Part shown: piece by piece, positions 12,029-28,510 of the stretch
Numbering within the stretch: the stretch's first letter is position 1
Layout: the number at the start of each line of letters is the position of its first letter
DNA from: Rickettsiales bacterium (ex Bugula neritina AB1)
GTDB lineage: Bacteria; Pseudomonadota; Alphaproteobacteria; CAJXXZ01; UBA1459
NCBI GenBank assembly: GCA_001730065.1
Contig: MDLE01000006.1
Coordinates: 4,041-68,040 of the forward strand
DNA length: 64,000 nt
Reading direction: 5' to 3'
Made by a program: the position numbers and the translations under genes
Notes under the pieces: model-generated
The model's database searches: none
The model's input: only the letters and a program-made list of their open reading frames with translations
Told to the model about the DNA's origin: nothing

Positions 12029-13324
12029 TTAAAAAGGTTTATTTTTAGATAAAATATAATTACACAAAATATGTGTGTTATTAATACATAAAAAAACTTT
12101 ACGTAAGTAGTGGGAAATTATTAAAACTGGGAAAAATATTAATATATATATTATTTTTAATGTTTTTGTCTTCGTAGAGATTTGATCTCTTATAAATTCC
12201 TCAAATAATATAATACTTACAAGTATATAGTCTATATGAACAAAGATAATACAAACTGAAAAAGGATAATAAAAAAATAATAATATTGTTTTAAAAATAA
12301 AAAGTAAAATTTCTATAATACTAATAATAAAATAGTTATTAGGATAAATAAATTTATTTTTTATTTTAATCAAACTTGATAAAAAAAAAATACCAATACC
12401 ACTATTTAAAACCACAAATAAACTTTGATTTATGGATGTATATCCCATGAAAATATCTATTAATAATGTAATTGTATTAGTAATATAAACCATAAACATT
12501 ATATCCAAATATTTAGGTTTGTTGTACTCTCTATCATTTTCATGACAATGTATTATAATATTTTGATGTTTTTTATAAAGATATATATAACGAGATAATA
12601 AAAATACTATTTTAATAAAATTTATTAAAATATTCCTTTTTGTGTATAAAAATAATCCTATTACTAAAGGATCAAATGTATATAATATATATATAATATT
12701 ATCATATTTATAATCATCTACATATATTTCTGAAGTACTTGAATTCTTTAAATTTGTGGGTTTTTTGACATAATTTTCGAATATATTTTTTGTAAAGTTT
12801 TGTGTACTATTATTATCATCTACATATATTTCTGAAGTACTTGAATTCTTTAAATTTGTGGGTTTTTTTACATAATTTTTGAATATATTTTTTGTAAAGT
12901 TTTGTGTACTATTATTATCATCTACATATATTTCTGAAGTACTTGAATTCTTTAAATTTGTGGGTTTTTTTACATAATTTTTGAATATATTTTTTGTAAA
13001 GTTTTGTGTACTATTACCAGTTTTTATATCATATATCAAAAAAGTAATAAAAATAATTAATATAATATTTATATATATATTTTTATAAAAATATATATCT
13101 TTAAAATCATTTTTAATAAAAATACTTTTATTATTTTTGTGATTTTCTAATTTTTTAAATTGTGTTTTGTGGAAGTGTTTTAAATAAAAATAAAAACCAG
13201 CGATTAATGAATTATTAATCAAAAATTTTTTTAAAATTTCTATCGTAAAAATATTACTAAAATTCCTACTTGTCAAGTTAAAAGGATTTATACTAACAAA
13301 TAAAATATAAAGTATATGTAACAC
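12029..13324 (-). CDS. polytopic membrane protein with 3 x 34-aa tandem repeat (hypothetical)
   Basis: 431-aa ORF with many hydrophobic segments. The repeat is NSTQNFTKNIFKNYVKKPTNLKNSSTSEIYVDDN, present 3 times. Confidence 0.6.
   Translation of the reverse strand: MLHILYILFVSINPFNLTSRNFSNIFTIEILKKFLINNSLIAGFYFYLKHFHKTQFKKLENHKNNKSIFIKNDFKDIYFYKNIYINIILIIFITFLIYDIKTGNSTQNFTKNIFKNYVKKPTNLKNSSTSEIYVDDNNSTQNFTKNIFKNYVKKPTNLKNSSTSEIYVDDNNSTQNFTKNIFENYVKKPTNLKNSSTSEIYVDDYKYDNIIYILYTFDPLVIGLFLYTKRNILINFIKIVFLLSRYIYLYKKHQNIIIHCHENDREYNKPKYLDIMFMVYITNTITLLIDIFMGYTSINQSLFVVLNSGIGIFFLSSLIKIKNKFIYPNNYFIISIIEILLFIFKTILLFFYYPFSVCIIFVHIDYILVSIILFEEFIRDQISTKTKTLKIIYILIFFPVLIISHYLRKVFLCINNTHILCNYILSKNKPF
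12713..13016. repeat. 102-bp tandem repeat, 3 near-identical copies
   Basis: atcatctacatatatttctgaag... recurs at 12713, 12815 and 12917 (period 102) with only a few substitutions. The period is in-frame (34 codons). Confidence 0.9.
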
Positions 13325-13403: not shown

Positions 13404-15056
13404 ATGTTATCTTTGAAAGGATATCAGATTATAATTAACAGGCCTGAAAATCCTTTATTAATAAAGGAATTATTAAAACAAAAAAATAAAAACATACAAT
13501 TTCTTAAGAAAGATATTAAAATTTTTTTAGAGGATATTGAAAATAAAATTATAAATTTTGATAAAGGTATTAATTTTTTAGGTGATGTGATAAAAAATAA
13601 AAAAAAAATTGGTATTATTGGTGATTATGATGCAGATGGTACTATAGCAACAAGTATTATTGTTAATTTTTTAAAACATATTAATTATCCTCATTGTTAT
13701 TATATTCCTAATCGTTTCAAAGATGGTTATGGTCCTTCTCAAACAATTATTGAAGAAATGTATAATAAAGAAGTAGAAGTAATTATTATGGTAGATACAG
13801 GTACAAAAGCTAATATAGAAGTAGCTTTGGCGGAAAATCTTGGTATGAAAGTAGTTATACTAGATCATCATTTACCATCAGAAGATTTACCAAATGCTTC
13901 TATATTAATTAATCCTCATATAAATGGACATTTTAATTATTTTTGTGGTGCAGGTTTAACATTTATATTTTTTTCAAAATTACAAAAATTTCTTATAAAA
14001 AATAATATTCTCAATAAAGATAATATATTTCTTTTTAATGATTTATTAGATTTAGTAGCGGTAGCAACCGTTTGTGATTTTGTACCTTTAAAAGATTTAA
14101 ATAGAAGTTTAGTATACTATGGTTTAGAAAAAATAAAAAAAAATCCTTATATAGCTTTTAAAATTATTTATGAAAATAATCCTTCTAATAATATTAATGA
14201 TGCAAGTGATCTTGGTTTTTATATTGGTCCTTACTTAAACGTTGCAGGAAGAATTGAAGATGCAAATATGGTGGTAGAATTTCTCACTACAAAAGATATA
14301 AAAAAATTAAATTATTATTTTAATCGTATTAAAATTATGACCGCAGAAAGAAAATATCTACAAAATAAAATGATCCAAAAAATAGAAATGAATATTCAAA
14401 ATACTAATGATATTTTTATAGCAAATGAAGAATTTCATGAAGGAATTATAGGTATAGTAGCATCCCAAATGAAACAAAAATATAATAGAACTTCTTGTGT
14501 TATATCTATTAAAGATAATATTTGTAAAGGATCTATGCGTACTAATGATAATTTTTCTGCTACAGACTTTATAGAAATGGCTTTAAAAGAAAATTTACTA
14601 ATTAAAGGAGGTGGACATGCAAGAGCTGGGGGTTTTTCTTTAAAAAAAAAAAATTTAGATTTACTAGAAAATTATTTCTATAAATATGGAAATAATTTTA
14701 TTAATTCTATTCAAAATATTTTTGTTTCTTCTATACTAGATTTTACAAATATTAATGAAAAAATATATAAAGAAATACATCAAATAGGTCCTTTTGGTAT
14801 TGAAAATGAAGAGTTTGTTTTTCTTTTTCCTTTTTTAAGAATTAATAATTTTTTTCTTTTACAAAACAAACATATTTCCTTTTATTTAAAACATTTTTAC
14901 AAAAGTAAATCTATTAAAGCATTGTATTTTAATTTTCCTATGAAATTAATATATAAAATACAAAAGAATAACATTATTCATTTAATAGGAAATATAAAAT
15001 ATAACAAATATTTTTATATTAATATCATTGATATTGTTGTAACAAACATAAATTAA
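13404..15056 (+). CDS. recJ: single-stranded-DNA-specific exonuclease RecJ
   Basis: IIGDYDADGT, MVDTG, ILDHH and GGGHARAGG motifs. Confidence 0.9.
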   Translation: MLSLKGYQIIINRPENPLLIKELLKQKNKNIQFLKKDIKIFLEDIENKIINFDKGINFLGDVIKNKKKIGIIGDYDADGTIATSIIVNFLKHINYPHCYYIPNRFKDGYGPSQTIIEEMYNKEVEVIIMVDTGTKANIEVALAENLGMKVVILDHHLPSEDLPNASILINPHINGHFNYFCGAGLTFIFFSKLQKFLIKNNILNKDNIFLFNDLLDLVAVATVCDFVPLKDLNRSLVYYGLEKIKKNPYIAFKIIYENNPSNNINDASDLGFYIGPYLNVAGRIEDANMVVEFLTTKDIKKLNYYFNRIKIMTAERKYLQNKMIQKIEMNIQNTNDIFIANEEFHEGIIGIVASQMKQKYNRTSCVISIKDNICKGSMRTNDNFSATDFIEMALKENLLIKGGGHARAGGFSLKKKNLDLLENYFYKYGNNFINSIQNIFVSSILDFTNINEKIYKEIHQIGPFGIENEEFVFLFPFLRINNFFLLQNKHISFYLKHFYKSKSIKALYFNFPMKLIYKIQKNNIIHLIGNIKYNKYFYINIIDIVVTNIN

Positions 15057-15115: not shown

Positions 15116-16204
15116 ATGAAATACACAAAAAAGTTATTTTTTTTTTTAATTTTTAATATCATTATATTTTGTCAACCTAGTATGATAGATGAGTATACAC
15201 AAGAAAATATAGATAATATAGATATAGTTGCAAATAAATTGAAGGAATTAGGTAAAAAACCTAGAAATGAGTATGATAGTAATATTAATGATGTATGTAA
15301 ATATTTAAATCAATCCTCCACAGAAGAACTAAATCAAATTAATGAAAAAAATCCACATTTTTTAAATTTATTTACAAATGATTCTAGCTATGAAATTCTT
15401 AAAAGTATAATACTTGTTTACTTGAAGGAAATTATTAATAATAAAAAAAAAATTAGTAAAATATTAAGTAAGAATGAAATTAATATTAATACAGATGATA
15501 TGGATAATATAGATACAAAATGTGAATATAGAGGTATAAAAGGTACTTTTCGTATACTAGCACGTATTAATGAAGATATTGATGAAGATGTTGATGAAGA
15601 TGTTGTTGATGTAAAGTATATAAATGATTGGTTAAAAAAATTTTGTAATTATATAGGTATTAATGAAGATGATGTAAAAAGATATGAAGATAGTGAAAGT
15701 TTTTATATAAAAGAAAATTATCCTGTAATCAAGTCTTTAAAATACATTGTAAAAGCATATAAGCGTGGAATGTTGCATTTTTATTTTTATCTATATTTTG
15801 ATTACATTGTTGTCATTGTTGCAGTTATTTTGTCATTAATATTTTTATTATATCATTTTGTTTATAATATAGATCAAGTAACAAATGTAGAAATTATTGA
15901 AGTACGTAATCAATGTGAAGCAACCATTTATAATGGTAAAAATACCTTAAAGGAATTCGAAGGTAAAATTTCTGACGAACTAAAAGCAGAAATTAATTCT
16001 ACAATAGAAGAAACGGAAAAGGTATTAGCATCTGATTCTAAAGATGTAGAAAAAATTAGAGGAGCTACAGAAAATTTACAAATGGTTTTGAGTAAAATTT
16101 ATGAAGAAATGAGTAAAAAACAAAATCAAGAAGCACCTCAAGATCAAGCATCTGAAAATAATCCTTCACAGGAAGAGAAACAAAAAGAAGAAGAAAATAA
16201 ATAA
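15116..16204 (+). CDS. chimeric protein: signal peptide/acidic/TM surface-protein part fused to a DnaK C-terminal lid domain
   Basis: The N-part has a signal-like segment (MKYTKKLFFFLIFNIIIFC), DEDVDEDVDEDV, and a TM segment (VVIVAVILSLIFLLYHFVYN). The C-part from about 15885 reads EVRNQCEATIYNGKNTLKEFEGKISDELKAEINSTIEETEKVL..ENLQMVLSKIYEEM, which is the Hsp70 helical lid. Confidence 0.7.
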   Translation: MKYTKKLFFFLIFNIIIFCQPSMIDEYTQENIDNIDIVANKLKELGKKPRNEYDSNINDVCKYLNQSSTEELNQINEKNPHFLNLFTNDSSYEILKSIILVYLKEIINNKKKISKILSKNEININTDDMDNIDTKCEYRGIKGTFRILARINEDIDEDVDEDVVDVKYINDWLKKFCNYIGINEDDVKRYEDSESFYIKENYPVIKSLKYIVKAYKRGMLHFYFYLYFDYIVVIVAVILSLIFLLYHFVYNIDQVTNVEIIEVRNQCEATIYNGKNTLKEFEGKISDELKAEINSTIEETEKVLASDSKDVEKIRGATENLQMVLSKIYEEMSKKQNQEAPQDQASENNPSQEEKQKEEENK

Positions 16205-16266
16205 AAATAATATTACTAACTAAATAATATTACTAACTATTTTTTAGTTTGTGATATAATATTTTT

Positions 16267-17496
16267 GTGAAAAATAATTTACCTGTTAAAGGATTTAGAT
16301 ATCAGGATGAAAGAAAATATACTCTTTTAAAGTTTATTGAAGAAAAATTTATTAATATTACAAAATTATTTGGTATTAAATTAATTCAACTACCAACTAT
16401 TGAATATTCAGAGCTTTTTACAAATTGTGGAGAAAATAGTGATATTGTAAATAAAGAATTATTTTTTTTAGAAAACTCTAATTATTGTTTATTACCAGAA
16501 GGTACTAATGCTTTTGTAAAATATGTGGATAATAATTATGGTAACTATGGTATGATTATAGATTGTTTTCGTTATAATAATCCTCAAAAAGGTAGGTATC
16601 GTCAATTTCGTCAAATGGCATTAGAAATGATAGGAAACAGTCATTATACACAAGAAGTAAATTTAATAGTAATAATAGAAAATTTTCTTCAAGAATTAAA
16701 AATTAATAATAATAATTATCAATTAGAAATTAATTGTATTGGTAATAATAATGATCGTTTAAGATATAATGAAGTTCTCAAGGAATATTTTATGAATAGT
16801 TTTGATAATTTAAGTTATGAATCACAACAAAGATATAAACGTAATGCTTATTTAAGAATTTTAGATTCTAAAAATGATGATGAGATTTTAAAAAATATTC
16901 CAAATATATACAATTATTTATCAGAACAATCAAAAACAAAATATGAAAATATTAAAAAACTATTAAGATCTTTAAATATTAAATTTAAAGAAAATTTTCA
17001 ACTTGTACGTGGTTTAGATTACTATAATGATTTTGTATTTGAGTATACAAGTTCATTATTAGGTGCTCAATGTAGTTTTGCAGGTGGTGGACGTTATGAT
17101 AACTTATTTCTGAAAATTAAGGAGGATAATATACCTGCTTTAGGTTGTGGTATTGGCCTAGAAAGAATAGGAATAATGTTAGAAAATATAAATTTTTCTT
17201 TAGAAAAACCTAAAAATATTTTAATACTTCCAATTGAAGAACAAAATCTTGTATATGCATATACATTACAAAATATTCTTCATAAAAAAAATATTAATGG
17301 TGAAGTATTATATAGTTATATAAATCTTTCAAAACGCATGAAAAAACATTCTAATAATTATGATTTTATGATACTTGTAGGAGATACAGAAGAAGAAAAC
17401 AATAGTTGTATTATTAAAAATTTAAAAAATCATACAGAAATTAATATAAAAATAAATAATATTTCTAATAAATTATTCTTTGAAGAAATAATCTAA
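16267..17496 (+). CDS. hisS: histidine--tRNA ligase
   Basis: LLPEGTNAFVKY, FRYNNPQKGRYRQFRQ, RGLDYYNDFVFE, GGGRYDNL and GIGLERI. Confidence 0.9.
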   Translation: MKNNLPVKGFRYQDERKYTLLKFIEEKFINITKLFGIKLIQLPTIEYSELFTNCGENSDIVNKELFFLENSNYCLLPEGTNAFVKYVDNNYGNYGMIIDCFRYNNPQKGRYRQFRQMALEMIGNSHYTQEVNLIVIIENFLQELKINNNNYQLEINCIGNNNDRLRYNEVLKEYFMNSFDNLSYESQQRYKRNAYLRILDSKNDDEILKNIPNIYNYLSEQSKTKYENIKKLLRSLNIKFKENFQLVRGLDYYNDFVFEYTSSLLGAQCSFAGGGRYDNLFLKIKEDNIPALGCGIGLERIGIMLENINFSLEKPKNILILPIEEQNLVYAYTLQNILHKKNINGEVLYSYINLSKRMKKHSNNYDFMILVGDTEEENNSCIIKNLKNHTEINIKINNISNKLFFEEII

Positions 17497-17705
17497 AATT
17501 TTTATAATTTTAAATTGTAGTAATTATAAAAAACACTATTTTCATTTGTTTTTTCATAATTAATTTCTACATCAAAAAAAACTTTCTTTAAATTTTTCTA
17601 CAAAAACATTATGTAATGTTGTAATAACATTACTATTTAAATAACAAATTTTTTTTTATTATTATAATAATTTATAGAATCAATTTATTTAAACAAAAAT
17701 ATTAA

Positions 17706-18155
17706 TAATATTTAAATACACCACCTAAGGTTTCTAAACCTAAAGAAAGAAGTGTTACGTCTAATAACAACATATCTTTTGTGGATACATCACCCGCTAA
17801 AATAGCTGCTTGTATTGCAGCACCTGCTGCCACTGCTTCATCAGGGTTTACACTTTCATTTAAAATCCTTACCTATTAATTTTTTTAATTCTTCTTTAAC
17901 TAATGGTACACGTGTAGAACCACCTACTAATAGTATATCTTTAATATCTTGTATTGTTAATTTCGCATCTTTAATAGCTTCTTCTGTAATTCTAATACTT
18001 CTATTTACAAGTGATTTAATTAAATCATTAAATTTTGCTCTTGTAAATGTCATTTTGAAATGTACAGGTTGATTATCTTTAGGATTAATAGCTAAAAATG
18101 GTAGGTTAACTTCCGTTGCCATAGATCCTGATAATTTTATTTTTGTATCTACAAT
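17706..18155 (-). pseudogene. dnaK: dnaK internal fragment (NBD subdomain IIB to start of SBD), frameshifted
   Basis: Track ORF 17856-18122 reads TEVNLPF..TRAKFNDL..ILLVGGSTRVP. After a frameshift at about 17856 my translation continues [44 protein letters not shown] and then stops. There is no N-terminal 250 aa and no SBD-beta. Confidence 0.85.
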
Positions 18156-18193
18156 ATTATTAATATAAGAAATTTATTATATAATTATATTAT

Positions 18194-19453
18194 ATGTTTA
18201 AGTTCCTAAAAGACAAAATACAAAATCAAATTTTAAATAATAGTAAAGTACACAAAGAATCTATAGGTAATCAAGTTTTCCGTATTTTAGTGGAATCAGA
18301 TTTAGATTATAATTTTTCAAAAAAAATTAGTGATGAGATTCAAAAGTTAATCAATGATGATGTCCCTATAAAAAATGCATTTACAAATGTAATAAAAAAC
18401 AACATGTATATGTCAAATATAAAAAAAGGTATTGTTACCTTAATAGGTTTTCAAGGACATGGAAAAACAACTAATATTAATAAACTTGCTTATTTCTTAA
18501 GAAAAAAAGGCTGGAAAGTTGCAGTAGCAACTACTGATACAAACAGATATGCGGCTACGGAACAATTATATCATTTAGCGGAAAAAAATAATATTAACAT
18601 AATAAAAACAAATGCTAATAATAGTAATGAAATAGCGAAAGAAATTCTATCTCAAAAAGAAAATTATGATTCTATAATTATTGATACACCAGGTATTAAC
18701 CCTAATAATAAAGAAAGCATTCAGCATTTAAATAATATTTTAAATATAATATCACCAAATGAAAATTTATTAGTACTTAATTCTTTATTAGGTAGTAGTG
18801 TTTTTAAAATGATTGAAAATTTTCTTCATGTTTCTAAACCTATTACAGGAGGTATTATTACAAATATGGATGGTGACACAAAAGGTGGAGTGTGTTTGTC
18901 TTTTAGTTATATTACAAAAAAACCTATTTATTTTATTTCAAATGGTGAAAAAATACATGACTTAGAGTATTTTAATAGTGATAGTATCTCTAATAGAATT
19001 GTGGGTGATATGGATTTTGTTGGATTACAAGGATTATTAGATAATTACTTTTCAAAATCAACAGAAGAAAAATTTATGTATCGTATAACAAATAAATTAT
19101 TTAATTTTGAAGATATGATATTTTATCTAACACATATGCAAAATTTTGGTTTAGAACGTATTATGAGTTTTGTAGGAAATCGTATGAAACCTATTAATAT
19201 ACAAGAAGGGGAAAAAAATATTAAAATTTTTACTAATATTATAAATTCTATGACAAAAAAAGAGCGTAAAAACCCTAATTTAATCAATAATTTATCTCGT
19301 ATGAAAAGAATTAGTAAAGGTTCTGGATATAGTATAAATACTGTACAACAACTATCTACAAATTACGAAGAATTAAAGAAGAAGATATTTATGTTGTCAG
19401 ATATGTTAAAAAGTAATACAAATCCTCAAGATATTTTAAAAAAATTTTTATAA
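18194..19453 (+). CDS. ffh: signal recognition particle protein Ffh
   Basis: GFQGHGKTT, IIDTPG, a TNMDGDTKGG G-domain and a Met-rich M domain. Confidence 0.9.
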   Translation: MFKFLKDKIQNQILNNSKVHKESIGNQVFRILVESDLDYNFSKKISDEIQKLINDDVPIKNAFTNVIKNNMYMSNIKKGIVTLIGFQGHGKTTNINKLAYFLRKKGWKVAVATTDTNRYAATEQLYHLAEKNNINIIKTNANNSNEIAKEILSQKENYDSIIIDTPGINPNNKESIQHLNNILNIISPNENLLVLNSLLGSSVFKMIENFLHVSKPITGGIITNMDGDTKGGVCLSFSYITKKPIYFISNGEKIHDLEYFNSDSISNRIVGDMDFVGLQGLLDNYFSKSTEEKFMYRITNKLFNFEDMIFYLTHMQNFGLERIMSFVGNRMKPINIQEGEKNIKIFTNIINSMTKKERKNPNLINNLSRMKRISKGSGYSINTVQQLSTNYEELKKKIFMLSDMLKSNTNPQDILKKFL

Positions 19454-20170
19454 ATCACTAACACCAAAATCAATATTAATATTACTATTATTTTCATCTT
19501 TTAATTTTATAATTTTATTTAAAAATTCTTCCATAACTATAAAGTTTTCATTTTTTTCTAATTCTTGAATTATAAAATTTCCAATTTCCTTTGAGTCCTT
19601 ATGATCAATATCAATAATAAAATTAGCAAGTTTATTATTAATATCATCTACAAATTTTTTTTGATGTTCAGCAATACCTATACTACGATCTTCACGAAGT
19701 TTTTCACGATTATTAAGATTTTCAATAGAAGACTTAAGACCTATGAGAATAATTTCGTATTCTATTTCTTTTAATTTAATATCTTTTATAATATTAATAA
19801 TATTTATTATGCTATCAATATTACAAATAACATCTACAATTATTATGTTATGCATTGTATTCACTAATATATTAAAAATAGTTTGCATATAATTTCTCCA
19901 ACTATTTAAAGCAATATTATCATTATTTGCAGTAACACTAATAATTTTATTATCTATATCACGTTTACATATAAAACCAGAGTTATCTTGATCAAATTGC
20001 CATTTTATAGGCATAATTTTAAAAAAAAAATAATCGGAATCATAAATTGTATATATATCATTAATATTATTATATAAAAATTTTTTATGAAAATAATTTC
20101 TCAAATATAAACTAATAGTACTTTTATAACTTGAAGATGTACCATTTAAAAAAATTAACTTACGTTTCAT
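19448..20170 (-). CDS. chloramphenicol phosphotransferase-like (CPT family) P-loop kinase, atypical Walker A
   Basis: IFLNGTSSSYKST aligns to the CPT motif ILNGGSSAGKS. Also IIIVDV, and ILIGLKSS..NNREKLREDRSIGIAEHQ aligns to VGVRC..GRE.ARGDR..G.A..Q. Confidence 0.65.
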   Translation of the reverse strand: MKRKLIFLNGTSSSYKSTISLYLRNYFHKKFLYNNINDIYTIYDSDYFFFKIMPIKWQFDQDNSGFICKRDIDNKIISVTANNDNIALNSWRNYMQTIFNILVNTMHNIIIVDVICNIDSIINIINIIKDIKLKEIEYEIILIGLKSSIENLNNREKLREDRSIGIAEHQKKFVDDINNKLANFIIDIDHKDSKEIGNFIIQELEKNENFIVMEEFLNKIIKLKDENNSNINIDFGVSDL

Positions 20171-26147: not shown

Positions 26148-27680
26148 ATGTTTCTTTTAATGATAATAGAAGATTTACCTATAAGAGAAACAAAACAAGC
26201 TATATCATATTTTAAAGATTTTAAAACTTATTTTTGGAAAGATGGTTTTTATGTTTATAAAGAAAAAAATCAAAAAACAATTAAAGGTCCAAAAATAGAA
26301 AAAATAAAAGAATGTGAATTGTTTAAAGAAAAAATAAAAAGACAATACAAAGATAATTACTCTTTTTATAATGATAAGAGATATATTTATGGAGATATTT
26401 TAGAAACAGAAATAGATTTTTTAAAGATAATACAAAGTATTAAATGGATTAATCCTATAAAAATTTTTGGAGATTTATCTCCTAGACCTATCAAAAAAAT
26501 ATATACAAACAAACAAATATTCTCTTATGGAGGTATTAGTTCAGAAATAGTTTCTCAAGATTTTATAAACAATATTATTTCTAATGTTACAACTATAGAA
26601 AAAAAATTAGAAATTACTAGTGTATTAAAAAAATATATATCTATAGAAGAATTAAAAAATTTATTATTTTCTATTAATAATCCTCAAATTATTTCCATAG
26701 ATTATAAAAAAAAATATCATCATTTACCTTATAAATTAGTAGAATATATTCTAAAAAAAGAACAAAAAATTATTACTGTCATAGAAAATAATAAGATTAT
26801 TAATTTTTATTTTATTGCTGATAAATTATTTAAGTTAAATTCTAAAAAGTTTCAAATTACTATTGATGGTCGTTTAGAAGATTTATGTATTTCCTACGAA
26901 AGAGATATAAAATTAGTAAAATTTCATCACAAACAAAAAGAATTATGGGAATTTTGTAAATATTTACTTAATAAGTATTTAGAAAATATTTCAGAAAAAT
27001 ATTTAAAAGAATTAATCAATAATTATAAAAGTGATTTTTTTACAAGTATTATAGAAGAATATCCTAATTTAATAGGTATATTAAGTTCACATATTTATGA
27101 TAAAAATATTTTAGTAAAAGAAGGTTTTTTAGCTTTAAGTGGTGAATTAAAAAATATATATGGAAGCTATTTATATTTAACAATAAATATATTTTTTCTT
27201 GAAAACTTATACAAAAATAATAAACTACCTACCGCCAAAAATGATCCTTTTGGAGTGAGACATATATCAAATACATTGTTAGAGATTATCATTTATAATG
27301 ATTTATGGAATTTGAATATTAATGATGGTGTAAAAATATTTCTTAAAGAAAGATTATATATAATGCTTAATAAAAAATATTCTTATGGAAATATTTTAAA
27401 TTATACAAATATTGATTTTGAATTTATTACAAAAATTATTCCTTATATAGAAATAAATTATAAAAAAATAAAAAATATTATAAATAGATGTAAATACTTT
27501 GTAAATAATCAAGTATCTCAAAAATATTTTGCAGATATTAATGAATTTATCAATGAAATAAAAAAAACAGAAGAAATACTAAACAATGAAAAAATTCAAA
27601 AAAATTTAAAACTTAAACATTATATTAATGATTTTATGGGAAAAATTAAAAATCTTTTTTATTTAAATAATATTAACTAA
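26148..27680 (+). CDS. glyS: divergent, shortened glycine--tRNA ligase beta subunit-like protein
   Basis: The N-terminus IIEDLPIRETKQAI aligns to GlyS EIGTEELPPKAL. WINPIKIFGD..PRPIKK aligns to LMRWG..FVRPVH. AKNDPFGVRHISNTLLEIII aligns to the GlyS motif KDPFALRRAALGIIRI. Confidence 0.5.
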   Translation: MFLLMIIEDLPIRETKQAISYFKDFKTYFWKDGFYVYKEKNQKTIKGPKIEKIKECELFKEKIKRQYKDNYSFYNDKRYIYGDILETEIDFLKIIQSIKWINPIKIFGDLSPRPIKKIYTNKQIFSYGGISSEIVSQDFINNIISNVTTIEKKLEITSVLKKYISIEELKNLLFSINNPQIISIDYKKKYHHLPYKLVEYILKKEQKIITVIENNKIINFYFIADKLFKLNSKKFQITIDGRLEDLCISYERDIKLVKFHHKQKELWEFCKYLLNKYLENISEKYLKELINNYKSDFFTSIIEEYPNLIGILSSHIYDKNILVKEGFLALSGELKNIYGSYLYLTINIFFLENLYKNNKLPTAKNDPFGVRHISNTLLEIIIYNDLWNLNINDGVKIFLKERLYIMLNKKYSYGNILNYTNIDFEFITKIIPYIEINYKKIKNIINRCKYFVNNQVSQKYFADINEFINEIKKTEEILNNEKIQKNLKLKHYINDFMGKIKNLFYLNNIN

Positions 27681-28510
27681 ATTTTATTATATAGAAAATA
27701 CATTGTAAAAATACTCATAAAAGAAAAACTAATATTTTTTTCTTTTACTTTTTTTTTTATAAATTTAATTGCTTCTTTTTCTAATTGACGTACTCTTTCC
27801 TTTGATAAATTTAAATCTTTTCCTAAACTTTCAAAGTTTTTATCCTGTAATAACCATTTATGTTCAATAATATATTTGTGACGATCACTAAGTTTATTAA
27901 CAATATCATGAATTTCTTTCATAGTAGAATCAATTTCTTTGTTTTTTAGAAGATTTTCATATTCATTATTTTCAGCAATATTTTCCCAAGTCATTAATTG
28001 ATCATCTTCACTAGAAATTCTTTGAGACATACTAGTAATGTGTATAGAAAGTTCTTTCATTTTTTTACGAATAATTTTTTGTGATAAAGATGTTTTTAAG
28101 GAAATATCTTCAAGTGCCTGTTCTTTTGAAGTGTCTCCATTTTTTATTTTCATCATCATATGTTTTATTAAACGATGAATAGAAGAATTACTAACTGTAA
28201 TAATATTTTTAATTTTCCAGGTAAACTCCTTCATCTTCCATACAATCCAATAATATACATATGTAGAAATTTTTACTTTTTTTTTTATATCAAAATTTTC
28301 TAATGCATGTATAAAACCAATTATTCCTTCCCCTAATAAATCATGATGATTTATATTTTCTCTAGAGTATTTATTTGCAATATCTTTAATTAAATATATA
28401 TGTCTATTTATAATTTTTTCTAAAAGACCAGGGTCTTTTGTTTTCTGCCATTCTTCAACTAAAACATATTCATCCACATCAGAATTATTAAATATCTTAT
28501 TTTTAAACAT
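27677..28510 (-). CDS. rpoH: RNA polymerase sigma-70 family factor, probably sigma-32
   Basis: 277 aa. Region 2 (DLLGEGIIGFIHALENFD) and region 4 (LNLSKERVRQLEKEAIKFIK). The size fits RpoH rather than RpoD. Confidence 0.7.
   Translation of the reverse strand: MFKNKIFNNSDVDEYVLVEEWQKTKDPGLLEKIINRHIYLIKDIANKYSRENINHHDLLGEGIIGFIHALENFDIKKKVKISTYVYYWIVWKMKEFTWKIKNIITVSNSSIHRLIKHMMMKIKNGDTSKEQALEDISLKTSLSQKIIRKKMKELSIHITSMSQRISSEDDQLMTWENIAENNEYENLLKNKEIDSTMKEIHDIVNKLSDRHKYIIEHKWLLQDKNFESLGKDLNLSKERVRQLEKEAIKFIKKKVKEKNISFSFMSIFTMYFLYNKI

What the first reader, a model, noticed from the sequence alone, without database searches (positions are those of the whole stretch)
15116..16204. Chimeric ORF: surface-protein N-part fused in frame to a DnaK C-terminal lid domain
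Residues 1 to about 255 look like the local surface-protein family. They have a signal-like start, an acidic DEDVDEDVDEDV block, and a TM segment VVIVAVILSLIFLLYHFVYN that resembles the tail anchor of the pseudogene at 2895-3660. Directly after the TM segment the sequence becomes unmistakable Hsp70 lid: EVRNQCEATIYNGKNTLKEFEGKISDELKAEINSTIEETEKVLASDSKDVEKIRGATENLQMVLSKIYEEM, followed by a Q/E-rich tail. The reading frame is intact through the junction (about 15870-15890). A former tail-anchored protein therefore now carries about 105 aa of chaperone lid on the other side of the membrane. It could be a neutral by-product of rearrangement, or a new exposed helical domain.
Basis: partly seen in the sequence, partly recalled or inferred. 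Interest (0 to 1): 0.65.

Follow-up and report, generated by a model that had tools for sequence, protein, structure and literature searches.

The report
Orphan membrane gene fused to DnaK-lid copy
In a very AT-rich bacterial symbiont, an unbroken 362-codon gene joins an orphan membrane-protein front half to a near-identical spare copy of the tail end of the cell's own DnaK chaperone gene; this is most likely a young by-product of local duplication, and no new function has been shown.

Summary
ORF 15116-16204 is open for 362 codons, and its last ~105 residues are a true DnaK/Hsp70 alpha-helical lid plus tail. Evidence: Pfam HSP70 positions 524-598, 60-65% identity to the closest relative's DnaK, and a confident AF2 bundle whose top ~45 PDB hits are all Hsp70 lids.

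The front 256 residues are real coding sequence with a signal-like start and a strongly hydrophobic segment. They are an orphan: I found no paralogue in the window and no homologue among 1.84 billion representatives.

The key new fact is that dnaK is not destroyed. Contigs from the same sample, including RNA, join dnaK's substrate-binding domain and its N-terminal part to sequence 98-100% identical to the window's pieces. The lid is multi-copy, with three different left contexts and a 291-nt in-frame tandem junction. A second piece (aa 269-413, frameshifted) lies inverted beyond hisS.

So this is a recent, or gene-converted, partial duplicate captured in frame. No transcript of the front half was seen, but the RNA data are shallow.

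It stays open whether the window assembly collapsed lid repeats, and so whether the printed tail and its link to hisS belong to this ORF. Moderate to low interest.

The parts
15116..16204 (+). Chimeric ORF of 362 codons (stop included)
   Evidence: the ORF listing. Codon-position composition is like real genes: GC1/2/3 = 0.32/0.19/0.11 in the front part.
15131..15190 (+). Signal-peptide-like or signal-anchor hydrophobic start (aa 6-25, KLFFFLIFNIIIFCQPSMID)
   Evidence: Kyte-Doolittle 19-residue window above 1.8. No lipobox and no clear AxA site on direct reading.
15564..15605 (+). 12-nt tandem repeat encoding the acidic EDIDEDVDEDVVDV block
   Evidence: the repeat finder family D1, spacing 12.
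15770..15874 (+). Strongly hydrophobic, T-rich segment (aa 219-253), the putative membrane span
   Evidence: Hydropathy up to 2.96. AF2 draws one continuous helix from aa 203 to 280. Run X1 has a coverage drop-out here.
15880..15892 (+). Junction zone. From 15880 the window is identical to the tandem-repeat (B) copies; from 15892 it is identical to the intact-dnaK (D) copy.
   Evidence: Contig ends and loose ends in X1, X2 and X4.
15887..16201 (+). DnaK lid (distal helix B plus helices C-E) and Q/E-rich C-terminal tail; equals aa 535-629 of relative DnaK P0002
   Evidence: Pfam, tblastn, AF2 plus Foldseek, blastn 76% to the relative's dnaK DNA.
16267..17496 (+). hisS, lying between the two dnaK pieces
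   Evidence: Pfam tRNA-synt_His plus HGTP_anticodon. 65% identical to the relative's HisRS P0136.
17497..17713 (.). Spacer between hisS and the inverted dnaK piece; its right end is junction J2
   Evidence: X1 contig 17396-18150 spans it. X3 contig 17578-17750 spans it too.
17714..18149 (-). Second dnaK piece (aa 269-413 of P0002: nucleotide-binding subdomain IIB/IIA, linker, first strand of the substrate-binding domain). One extra base near 17862 causes a frameshift, and the invariant DVTPLSLG motif reads Leu instead of Pro.
   Evidence: Pfam E 1e-22 and 1e-11. tblastn 67% and 90%. X3 lacks the extra base. X1 and X3 read G at 17751, which gives Pro.
13404..15056 (+). recJ, the upstream neighbour; contiguous with the ORF's front part in reads
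   Evidence: Pfam DHH, DHHA1, RecJ_OB. X1 contig of 1687 nt ending at 15647 with 0 differences over the part laid (15380-15647); its record positions place its start near 13961.
18194..19453 (+). ffh, starting 44 nt beyond the inverted dnaK piece (junction J3 at 18150/18151)
   Evidence: Pfam SRP54 plus SRP_SPB. X1 contig 18121-18320.

Best explanation
The ORF is a young chimera. An orphan gene has a signal-like start and a hydrophobic segment, and it sits directly after recJ. It has been joined in frame to one copy of a roughly 290-nt repeat unit derived from the 3' end of the genome's own dnaK (distal lid helices plus tail).

That unit is multi-copy in this organism. One copy ends the intact, transcribed dnaK. 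At least one more sits in a head-to-tail tandem junction. One is fused to the orphan. A further dnaK piece (aa 269-413) lies inverted on the far side of hisS and carries disabling lesions.

The copies are 98-100% identical to the intact gene. A roughly 3%-diverged strain from another sample shares two parts of the arrangement: the inverted piece and extra lid copies. The pieces are therefore either very recent or kept alike by gene conversion with dnaK.

Shown: the fusion, the repeats, and the intact-type junctions in DNA and RNA. Inferred: that the fused product has no evolved role and is a by-product of duplication and rearrangement around dnaK-hisS. If it is made, it would be a membrane-associated protein carrying an isolated three-helix lid bundle without the ATPase or the peptide-binding domain, so it could not act as a chaperone.
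For: (1) Lid identity.

(2) Intact dnaK-type sequence in the same sample.
- Contigs in X1 (127 nt, depth 7.8) and X2 (145 nt, depth 4.7), and the RNA contig of X4 (223 nt), read ...NAEEDKKRVA and then run into 15892 onward. The relative has EEDKKRVALIETRNQ there.
- An X2 contig of 833 nt has 545 nt unlike the window, then 18150 down to 17863 with 0 differences. Its loose end translates to ALQRIKAAA, as in P0002.
- In X1 the two continuations at 18121-18150 have equal depth, 6.1 each.
- An X3 contig of 525 nt joins 17750->17713, then 367 nt, then 15892->16008. That gap is exactly the missing 121 codons, and it begins LGGVFTVLIPKNTTI.

(3) Multi-copy lid.
- Three left contexts were seen (W, B, D).
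- The right end 16104-16145 continues either to hisS or through a 25-nt linker back into 15880, giving a unit of 291 nt = 97 codons in frame.
- Lid core depth is 18.1 in X1 and 12.5 in X2, against single-copy depths of 6-8 and 3-5.
- At least three lid haplotypes exist at 15963, 15976, 16021 and 16040.

(4) No sign of constraint on the spare copies.
- 4 of the 5 variant sites within the S1 sample are non-synonymous.
- The inverted piece has a frameshift and a Pro-to-Leu change in an invariant motif.
- X3 carries a lid version with a premature stop.

(5) The window pieces are no more diverged from outgroup DnaKs than the relative's functional DnaK is. This fits a recent copy or gene conversion.

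(6) The front part is an orphan and is absent at 90% identity or more from strain X3, although X3 holds hisS at 97%.

(7) RNA runs X4 and X5 hold none of the front part's words.

(8) In the closest relative, hisS has no dnaK piece within 10 kb, and dnaK lies near efp and alaS. The pieces are therefore lineage-specific.
Against: - The frame is open across 362 codons and across the junction. For a pure accident this needs some luck, roughly 1 in 3 for the frame alone.
- The RNA runs are shallow: hisS also shows no RNA, so absence of transcripts says little.
- The intact dnaK was not seen as one contiguous gene in sample S1. The stretch aa ~365-500 is shown only in X3.
- Contig depths are noisy at 3-8x, and one lid exit (about one copy) is missing from the contig graph. 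The true order of the copies, and hence the ORF's true 3' end, is unresolved.
- The four window-specific letters in the lid are not found in any Logan contig. Logan contigs do drop minor variants.
Confidence: 0.6

Rival explanations
1. Assembly collapse. The front part really is fused to a lid copy, but the window's assembler jumped between near-identical lid copies. The printed tail and the direct link to hisS would then belong to the intact dnaK (which would lie just upstream of hisS, as X3 suggests) or to a longer tandem-lid array. The ORF as printed (one lid, 362 aa) would not be the true gene.
For: - The lid is a repeat longer than 250 nt at 98% identity or more, with three entrances but only one non-loop exit in the contig graph.
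- The depth of the intact-type entrance matches the exit to hisS in X1 (7.8 against 7.5).
- In X3 the only lid entrance seen is the intact-dnaK one, and its exit runs into hisS.
- No intact DnaK closer than 58% to P0002 is in the protein collection, although that collection holds the window's own proteins. This fits dnaK having fallen out of the assembly at repeats.
- The window's letters at 16021 and 16040 are found in no Logan contig.
Against: - The window's four lid letters form a haplotype of their own, which an assembler does not invent.
- The junction front part -> lid is independently present in X2.
- Short contigs at 3-8x with tip clipping can easily lose an exit.
- This rival changes the 3' end of the ORF, not the existence of the chimera.
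Confidence: 0.3
2. Functional new gene. The fusion is expressed and selected, giving a membrane-tethered three-helix lid module. It might dock to or interfere with DnaK or its partners at the membrane, or serve as an exposed helical domain. Amplification of the lid unit would reflect selection for it.
For: - The frame is intact and the front part has gene-like codon composition.
- The lid portion folds confidently on its own in silico.
- The lid unit is amplified in frame (97 codons).
Against: - No RNA was found for the front part.
- The front part is absent from strain X3 and has no homologues anywhere.
- Variant sites are mostly non-synonymous.
- The charge distribution around the hydrophobic segment is inconsistent with an evolved stop-transfer anchor (direct reading of the sequence).
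- Promoter-like sites are no more frequent than in shuffles.
Confidence: 0.12
3. A single ancestral dnaK was broken by an inversion around hisS plus deletions. The organism would then have no working DnaK, and the lid would be the last remnant, captured by the upstream ORF (the reading of the companion first-stage note).
For: - Inverting 15887-17713 puts the two pieces in gene order on the minus strand.
- No other dnaK piece is in the window.
- No intact own-genome DnaK appears in the protein collection.
Against: - DNA and RNA contigs of the same sample carry intact-type junctions (substrate-binding domain -> lid, N-terminal part -> aa 269) at single-copy depth.
- The pieces are 98-100% identical to that copy, which is not expected of old relics.
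- dnaK is present in 98.9% of bacterial genomes (PMC11019930).
Confidence: 0.05

Closest known systems
DnaK/Hsp70 substrate-binding-domain alpha-helical lid (SBD-alpha) with C-terminal tail (Pfam PF00012, C-terminal end; PDB 1DKX, 4R5J, 5Z8Q)
   Same: Residues about 258-340 align to the lid in sequence and in predicted fold (distal helix B, helices C-E), followed by a disordered Q/E-rich tail as in the relative's DnaK.
   Different: The ATPase domain, the linker, the beta-sandwich peptide-binding domain, helix A and the proximal half of helix B are all missing. The lid is attached to an unrelated hydrophobic segment instead.
Chimeric genes born from partial duplication and illegitimate recombination (reviewed in PMC3449122; a Drosophila example in PMC1463047)
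   Same: The parental gene is kept intact, a partial copy is fused in frame to unrelated coding sequence, and the copy is young (near-identical to its parent).
   Different: Here it occurs in a tiny, 21% GC bacterial symbiont genome. The donor is an essential chaperone gene, the donated unit is also tandemly repeated, and expression is not shown.
Full-length DnaK paralogues in bacteria (6.4% of genomes; PMC11019930)
   Same: More than one dnaK-derived sequence in one genome.
   Different: Those are complete, specialised chaperones found in large proteomes. Here the extra copies are fragments of 97-145 codons in a reduced genome.
Pseudogene or partial-copy cassettes kept alike by gene conversion with an expressed gene (for example Anaplasma msp2 and Neisseria pilS; from general knowledge, not tested here)
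   Same: Truncated copies near an expressed parent stay almost identical to it, although the arrangement predates a strain split.
   Different: Those systems diversify surface antigens. Nothing suggests that dnaK is being varied. Conversion here is only inferred from identity levels.

Membership tests
Hsp70/DnaK chaperone (PF00012) | N-terminal actin-like ATPase (nucleotide-binding) domain | tested here: not met
   The Pfam match of the ORF covers only profile positions 524-598. tblastn with E. coli-type and relative DnaK finds no aa 1-268 anywhere in the window.
Hsp70/DnaK chaperone (PF00012) | Beta-sandwich substrate-binding domain (aa about 395-505) | tested here: not met
   No match to aa 414-534 of P0002 in any frame of the window.
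Hsp70/DnaK chaperone (PF00012) | [quoted passage not shown] | tested here: met
   Pfam E 3e-5, above the curated cut-off. 60-65% identity to P0002. Foldseek top hits are all Hsp70 lids.
   tblastn best E 0.04, elsewhere in the window. Local alignment z-scores 0.2-1.7 against shuffles.
Chimeric gene from partial duplication | Parental gene still present and intact | tested here: inconclusive
   Intact-type junctions are present in DNA (X1, X2) and RNA (X4) of the same sample. Continuity from aa 402 through the peptide-binding domain into the lid is shown in X3.
Chimeric gene from partial duplication | Fusion junction present in the DNA, not only in one assembly | tested here: met
   X2 Logan contig 15713-15909, 0 differences, depth 3.2. 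X1 has a coverage drop-out at 15650-15880.
Chimeric gene from partial duplication | Transcription or translation of the fused frame | tested here: inconclusive
   RNA runs X4 and X5 hold 0.00 of the front part's words. The only RNA contig on the lid carries the intact-dnaK left context. The runs are shallow: hisS has no RNA either.
Pseudogene / gene relic | Disrupted reading frame or loss of invariant residues | tested here: met
   This applies to the inverted piece 17714-18149: a frameshift near 17862 and Pro->Leu in DVTPLSLG. It does not apply to ORF 15116-16204 itself, whose frame is intact.

The most novel reading that the evidence does not exclude
The three-helix DnaK lid has become a proliferating protein module in this symbiont lineage. 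It exists in four or more near-identical copies, kept alike by gene conversion, including an in-frame tandem array (perhaps a multi-lid DnaK) and a membrane-anchored version. At least one of these variants would be expressed and selected, for example to tether or modulate the Hsp70 system at the membrane.
Probability: 0.1. Interest if true: 0.65.

Novelty: new member of a known kind. Interest (0 to 1): 0.35.

Why it matters
If the reading is right, the locus is a clean, very young example of how partial duplicates of an essential gene seed chimeric open frames, even in a tiny and decaying symbiont genome. It also shows that such genomes can still be locally repeat-active.

It carries a practical warning. 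The published contig probably under-represents dnaK and its repeats, so 'dnaK lost or broken' would be a wrong annotation for this organism.

It would matter more only if the membrane-tethered lid, or a multi-lid DnaK, turned out to be expressed and conserved.

Tried and rejected
- The look-up of encoding contigs does not hold the window's own genome. Three look-ups found nothing; the first of them was given wrong minus-strand coordinates and was void, while searches used correct sequences. I therefore could not walk left of the window towards the place where the relative keeps dnaK (about 6.4 kb beyond alaS).

**Searches that led nowhere**
- The genome-contig scan with P0002 returned only DnaKs at 48-54% identity. 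Neither the window's genome nor the close relative appeared.
- Inverted repeats at the two breakpoints: the best pair (15835-15866 / 17675-17706, 72% complementary) is at chance level for 79% AT DNA and is wrongly placed for the inversion model.
- Promoter and terminator scans show nothing above shuffles.
- The PDB sequence search with the lid alone is weak (mitochondrial Hsp70 at E 0.004) and is topped by a spurious amphipathic-helix match to apolipoprotein A-IV. Fold comparison was needed.
- The last 71 nt of the relative's dnaK contig do not overlap its hisS upstream region, so dnaK-hisS adjacency is not ancestral there.

**Ideas dropped**
- HscA as the donor is rejected: the pieces are 65-90% identical to a DnaK.
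- I first thought the letters before the lid in the window were clearly homologous to the inter-repeat linker. Only the 12 nt at 15880-15891 are firmly shared, so I dropped that claim.

Full report
**The observation**

The window is about 21% GC throughout. ORF 15116-16204 (+) is open for 362 codons. About one random codon in ten is a stop in such DNA, and the other five frames of the front part hold 10-49 stops. Its codon-position composition (GC1/2/3 = 0.32/0.19/0.11, 71% purine at position 1) matches recJ, hisS and ffh. The front part is therefore real coding sequence.

It has three visible features:
- a hydrophobic, signal-like start (aa 6-25);
- an acidic block made by a 12-nt tandem repeat;
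- a very hydrophobic stretch at aa 219-253.

Residues 257-333 hit Pfam HSP70 at profile positions 524-598 of 599, above the curated cut-off. A single-sequence AF2 model is confident only for aa 260-338. Foldseek's first ~45 PDB matches to it are all DnaK, Hsp70, BiP or HscA lids at 1.2-2 A rmsd.

**The front part is an orphan**

- A word-indexed search of 5.8 billion proteins with the whole ORF found only itself and DnaKs, the latter through the lid.
- phmmer of aa 1-256 against 1.84 billion representatives found itself and two long repetitive proteins matched in 13-14 short stretches, which is compositional.
- Nothing in the window resembles it. Alignment to the neighbouring 'surface' ORFs and the pseudogene frames is within 0.2-1.7 sd of shuffled controls.

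The 'local family' claim is not supported.

**More dnaK in the window**

On the minus strand, 18149-17844 and, in another frame, 17869-17714 encode aa 269-413 of a DnaK (Pfam E 1e-22 and 1e-11; reading). The closest intact DnaK in public data is P0002 (629 aa, Logan assemblies of ERR104668xx). It matches these two stretches at 67% and 90%, and the lid at 60%. At the DNA level the figures are 78% and 76%. No trace of aa 1-268 or 414-534 exists in the window. hisS lies between the two pieces, recJ upstream and ffh downstream. A companion first-stage note proposed one inversion of one ancestral gene. Geometrically that works, but it is not the whole story.

**An intact dnaK persists**

Four public runs hold this DNA: X1 and X2 (DNA) and X4 (RNA) from one 'symbiont metagenome' sample, S1, and X3 (DNA) from another sample. 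Laying their Logan contigs on the window showed contigs that leave the window exactly at the edges of the dnaK pieces and continue as dnaK.

- *Before 15892.* X1 (127 nt, depth 7.8), X2 (145 nt, depth 4.7) and the RNA contig of X4 read ...AATGCAGAAGAAGACAAAAAACGTGTGGC, which is NAEEDKKRVA. This is the end of the peptide-binding domain region as in P0002.
- *Beyond 18150.* X1, X2 and X3 continue with the reverse complement of ...ALQRIKAAA(E). An X2 contig has 545 such nucleotides joined to 18150->17863 with no difference.
- *In X3.* One 525-nt contig joins 17750->17713, then 367 nt beginning LGGVFTVLIPKNTTI, then 15892->16008. That gap is the length of the missing 121 codons.
- *Depth.* In X1 the two continuations at 18121-18150 (towards ffh as in the window, and towards the dnaK N-terminus) have equal depth, 6.1 each.

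An intact-type dnaK is thus present at single-copy depth in the same sample and is transcribed. The window's pieces are 98-100% identical to it. This agrees with the near-universality of dnaK (98.9% of bacterial genomes, PMC11019930).

The amino-acid distances of the window pieces to outgroup DnaKs are no larger than those of P0002. That fits recent copying or gene conversion, not old relics.

**The lid is a multi-copy repeat**

Three left contexts run into it in S1:
- W, the ORF's front part (X2 contig 15713-15909, 0 differences, depth 3.2);
- D, the intact dnaK;
- B, a 20-nt context AATAATATTGAAATTGAACA entering at 15880.

On the right, 16104-16145 continues in one of two ways. It runs either into hisS (depth 7.5 in X1, 4.1 in X2) or into CACAAAATAATATTGAAATTGAACA and back into 15880 (depth 19.9 and 6.0). 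The second path is a head-to-tail junction with a unit of 291 nt = 97 codons in frame...QEAPQD-PQNNIEIEQ-TNVEIIEVRNQ....

The lid core contig has depth 18.1 in X1 and 12.5 in X2, against 6-8 and 3-5 for single-copy flanks. It differs from the window at 15963, 15976, 16021 and 16040. The RNA contig shares only the last two of these differences, so at least three haplotypes exist.

Of the five variant sites in S1, four change the amino acid. X3 also holds a second lid version, in which 84 nt are replaced by 29 nt ending in a stop. The inverted piece carries an extra base near 17862, which X3 lacks. In the window it also reads Leu where X1 and X3 read the invariant Pro of DVTPLSLG. None of this looks like constraint on the spare copies.

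**Age and lineage**

X3 is about 97% identical in hisS and shares the junction spacer/inverted piece (17578-17750). The rearrangement therefore predates the split of the two strains, yet the copies within S1 are almost identical to the parent. Gene conversion is the simplest reconciliation; this is inference. X3 shows no contig at 90% identity or more for the ORF's front part or for recJ's 3' half, so the chimera itself may be specific to the S1 strain.

In the closest relative, hisS (P0136, 65% identity) has no dnaK piece, recJ, ffh or front-part homologue within 10 kb. There dnaK lies near efp and alaS. Gene order is scrambled between the two lineages, and the dnaK pieces next to hisS are lineage-specific.

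**What remains open**

The contig graph has entrances W, D and B but only one non-loop exit, so about one copy's exit is missing. There are two possibilities:
- the intact dnaK lies elsewhere and its exit was lost at low coverage; or
- the intact dnaK sits directly upstream of hisS, as X3's contigs suggest, and the window's assembler jumped from the fused lid to the dnaK lid, dropping dnaK.

The second would explain why no DnaK closer than 58% to P0002 is in the protein collection, although that collection holds the window's proteins. In both cases the front part -> lid junction is real. What is uncertain is the number of lids and which tail belongs to the ORF. X1 has a coverage drop-out at 15650-15880, the most T-rich part. 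Its 1687-nt contig, placed by its record positions from about 13961 in recJ, ends at 15647 with no differences over the part laid (15380-15647) and no loose end.

**Expression and topology**

The RNA runs hold none of the front part's words. The only RNA contigs here are the intact-dnaK junction and a 151-nt stretch of the aa 269-413 region. The runs are shallow and hisS is also silent, so this is weak evidence of absence. Promoter-like sites are at chance level.

Topology cannot be settled. A signal-like start would put the middle part outside and the lid inside. But the flank before the hydrophobic segment is K/R-rich and the flank after it is acidic, which is the reverse of an evolved stop-transfer anchor.

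**Verdict**

This is a real, in-frame fusion of an orphan membrane-type gene to a spare copy of the dnaK lid unit. It arose within a small nest of dnaK-derived repeats around hisS. It is most likely a young, neutral by-product (0.6). Assembly collapse of the repeats may distort its 3' end (0.3; this is compatible with the main reading). A selected membrane-tethered lid is possible but unsupported (0.12). Loss of dnaK is effectively excluded (0.05).

Noticed in passing
window 8330-10249 (+): A single 639-aa ORF carries VipA/TssB (aa 11-162) fused to VipB/TssC (aa 215-633). This is a fused type VI secretion sheath gene in a very reduced, 21% GC genome (Pfam).
   Followed up: partly
window 10271-10897 (+): The 208-aa ORF just after the fused sheath gene, called Hcp-like by a first-stage note, has no Pfam match at E <= 0.001.
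   Followed up: partly
window 27677-28510 (-): A 277-aa sigma-70-family protein with only regions 2 and 4 (Pfam). Its size and architecture fit RpoH, so a heat-shock sigma factor seems to be retained alongside dnaK.
   Followed up: no
window 12029-13324 (-): A 431-aa orphan polytopic membrane ORF contains three near-identical 34-residue repeats (NNSTQNFTKNIF.NYVKKPTNLKNSSTSEIYVDD), visible in the translation. It has no Pfam match. It is another sign that this small genome is repeat-active.
   Followed up: no
window 16252-16260 (+): TGATATAAT, a perfect extended -10 element, ends 6 nt before the GTG start of hisS. hisS may therefore be transcribed from its own promoter as a nearly leaderless mRNA, independently of the ORF upstream (direct reading; the consensus scan did not score it).
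   Followed up: no
L001 10016-10086; L002 and L003 ends: In three different samples of the closest relative, the contig carrying dnaK stops about 70 nt after the dnaK stop codon. This hints at a repeat or an extreme AT tract directly downstream of dnaK there too.
   Followed up: no
window 16081-16164, as seen in run X3: Strain X3 has, besides a collinear lid-hisS contig, a contig in which these 84 nt are replaced by 29 nt (GTCGAATTATCAAACAATAGTAGGATAAA). That creates a stop inside the lid, so this is a damaged extra lid copy in the other strain.
   Followed up: partly
window 17765, 17797, 17934, as seen in run X3: The X3 contig covering the aa 269-413 region lacks the window's frameshift. Relative to the window it has two single-base insertions and a 6-nt deletion. 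The relic copies in the two strains therefore seem to carry independent lesions, or the contig mixes two copies.
   Followed up: no
window 19448-20170 (-): A 240-aa ORF matches the chloramphenicol-phosphotransferase-like family (Pfam CPT, E 5e-11), as a first-stage note had said.
   Followed up: no
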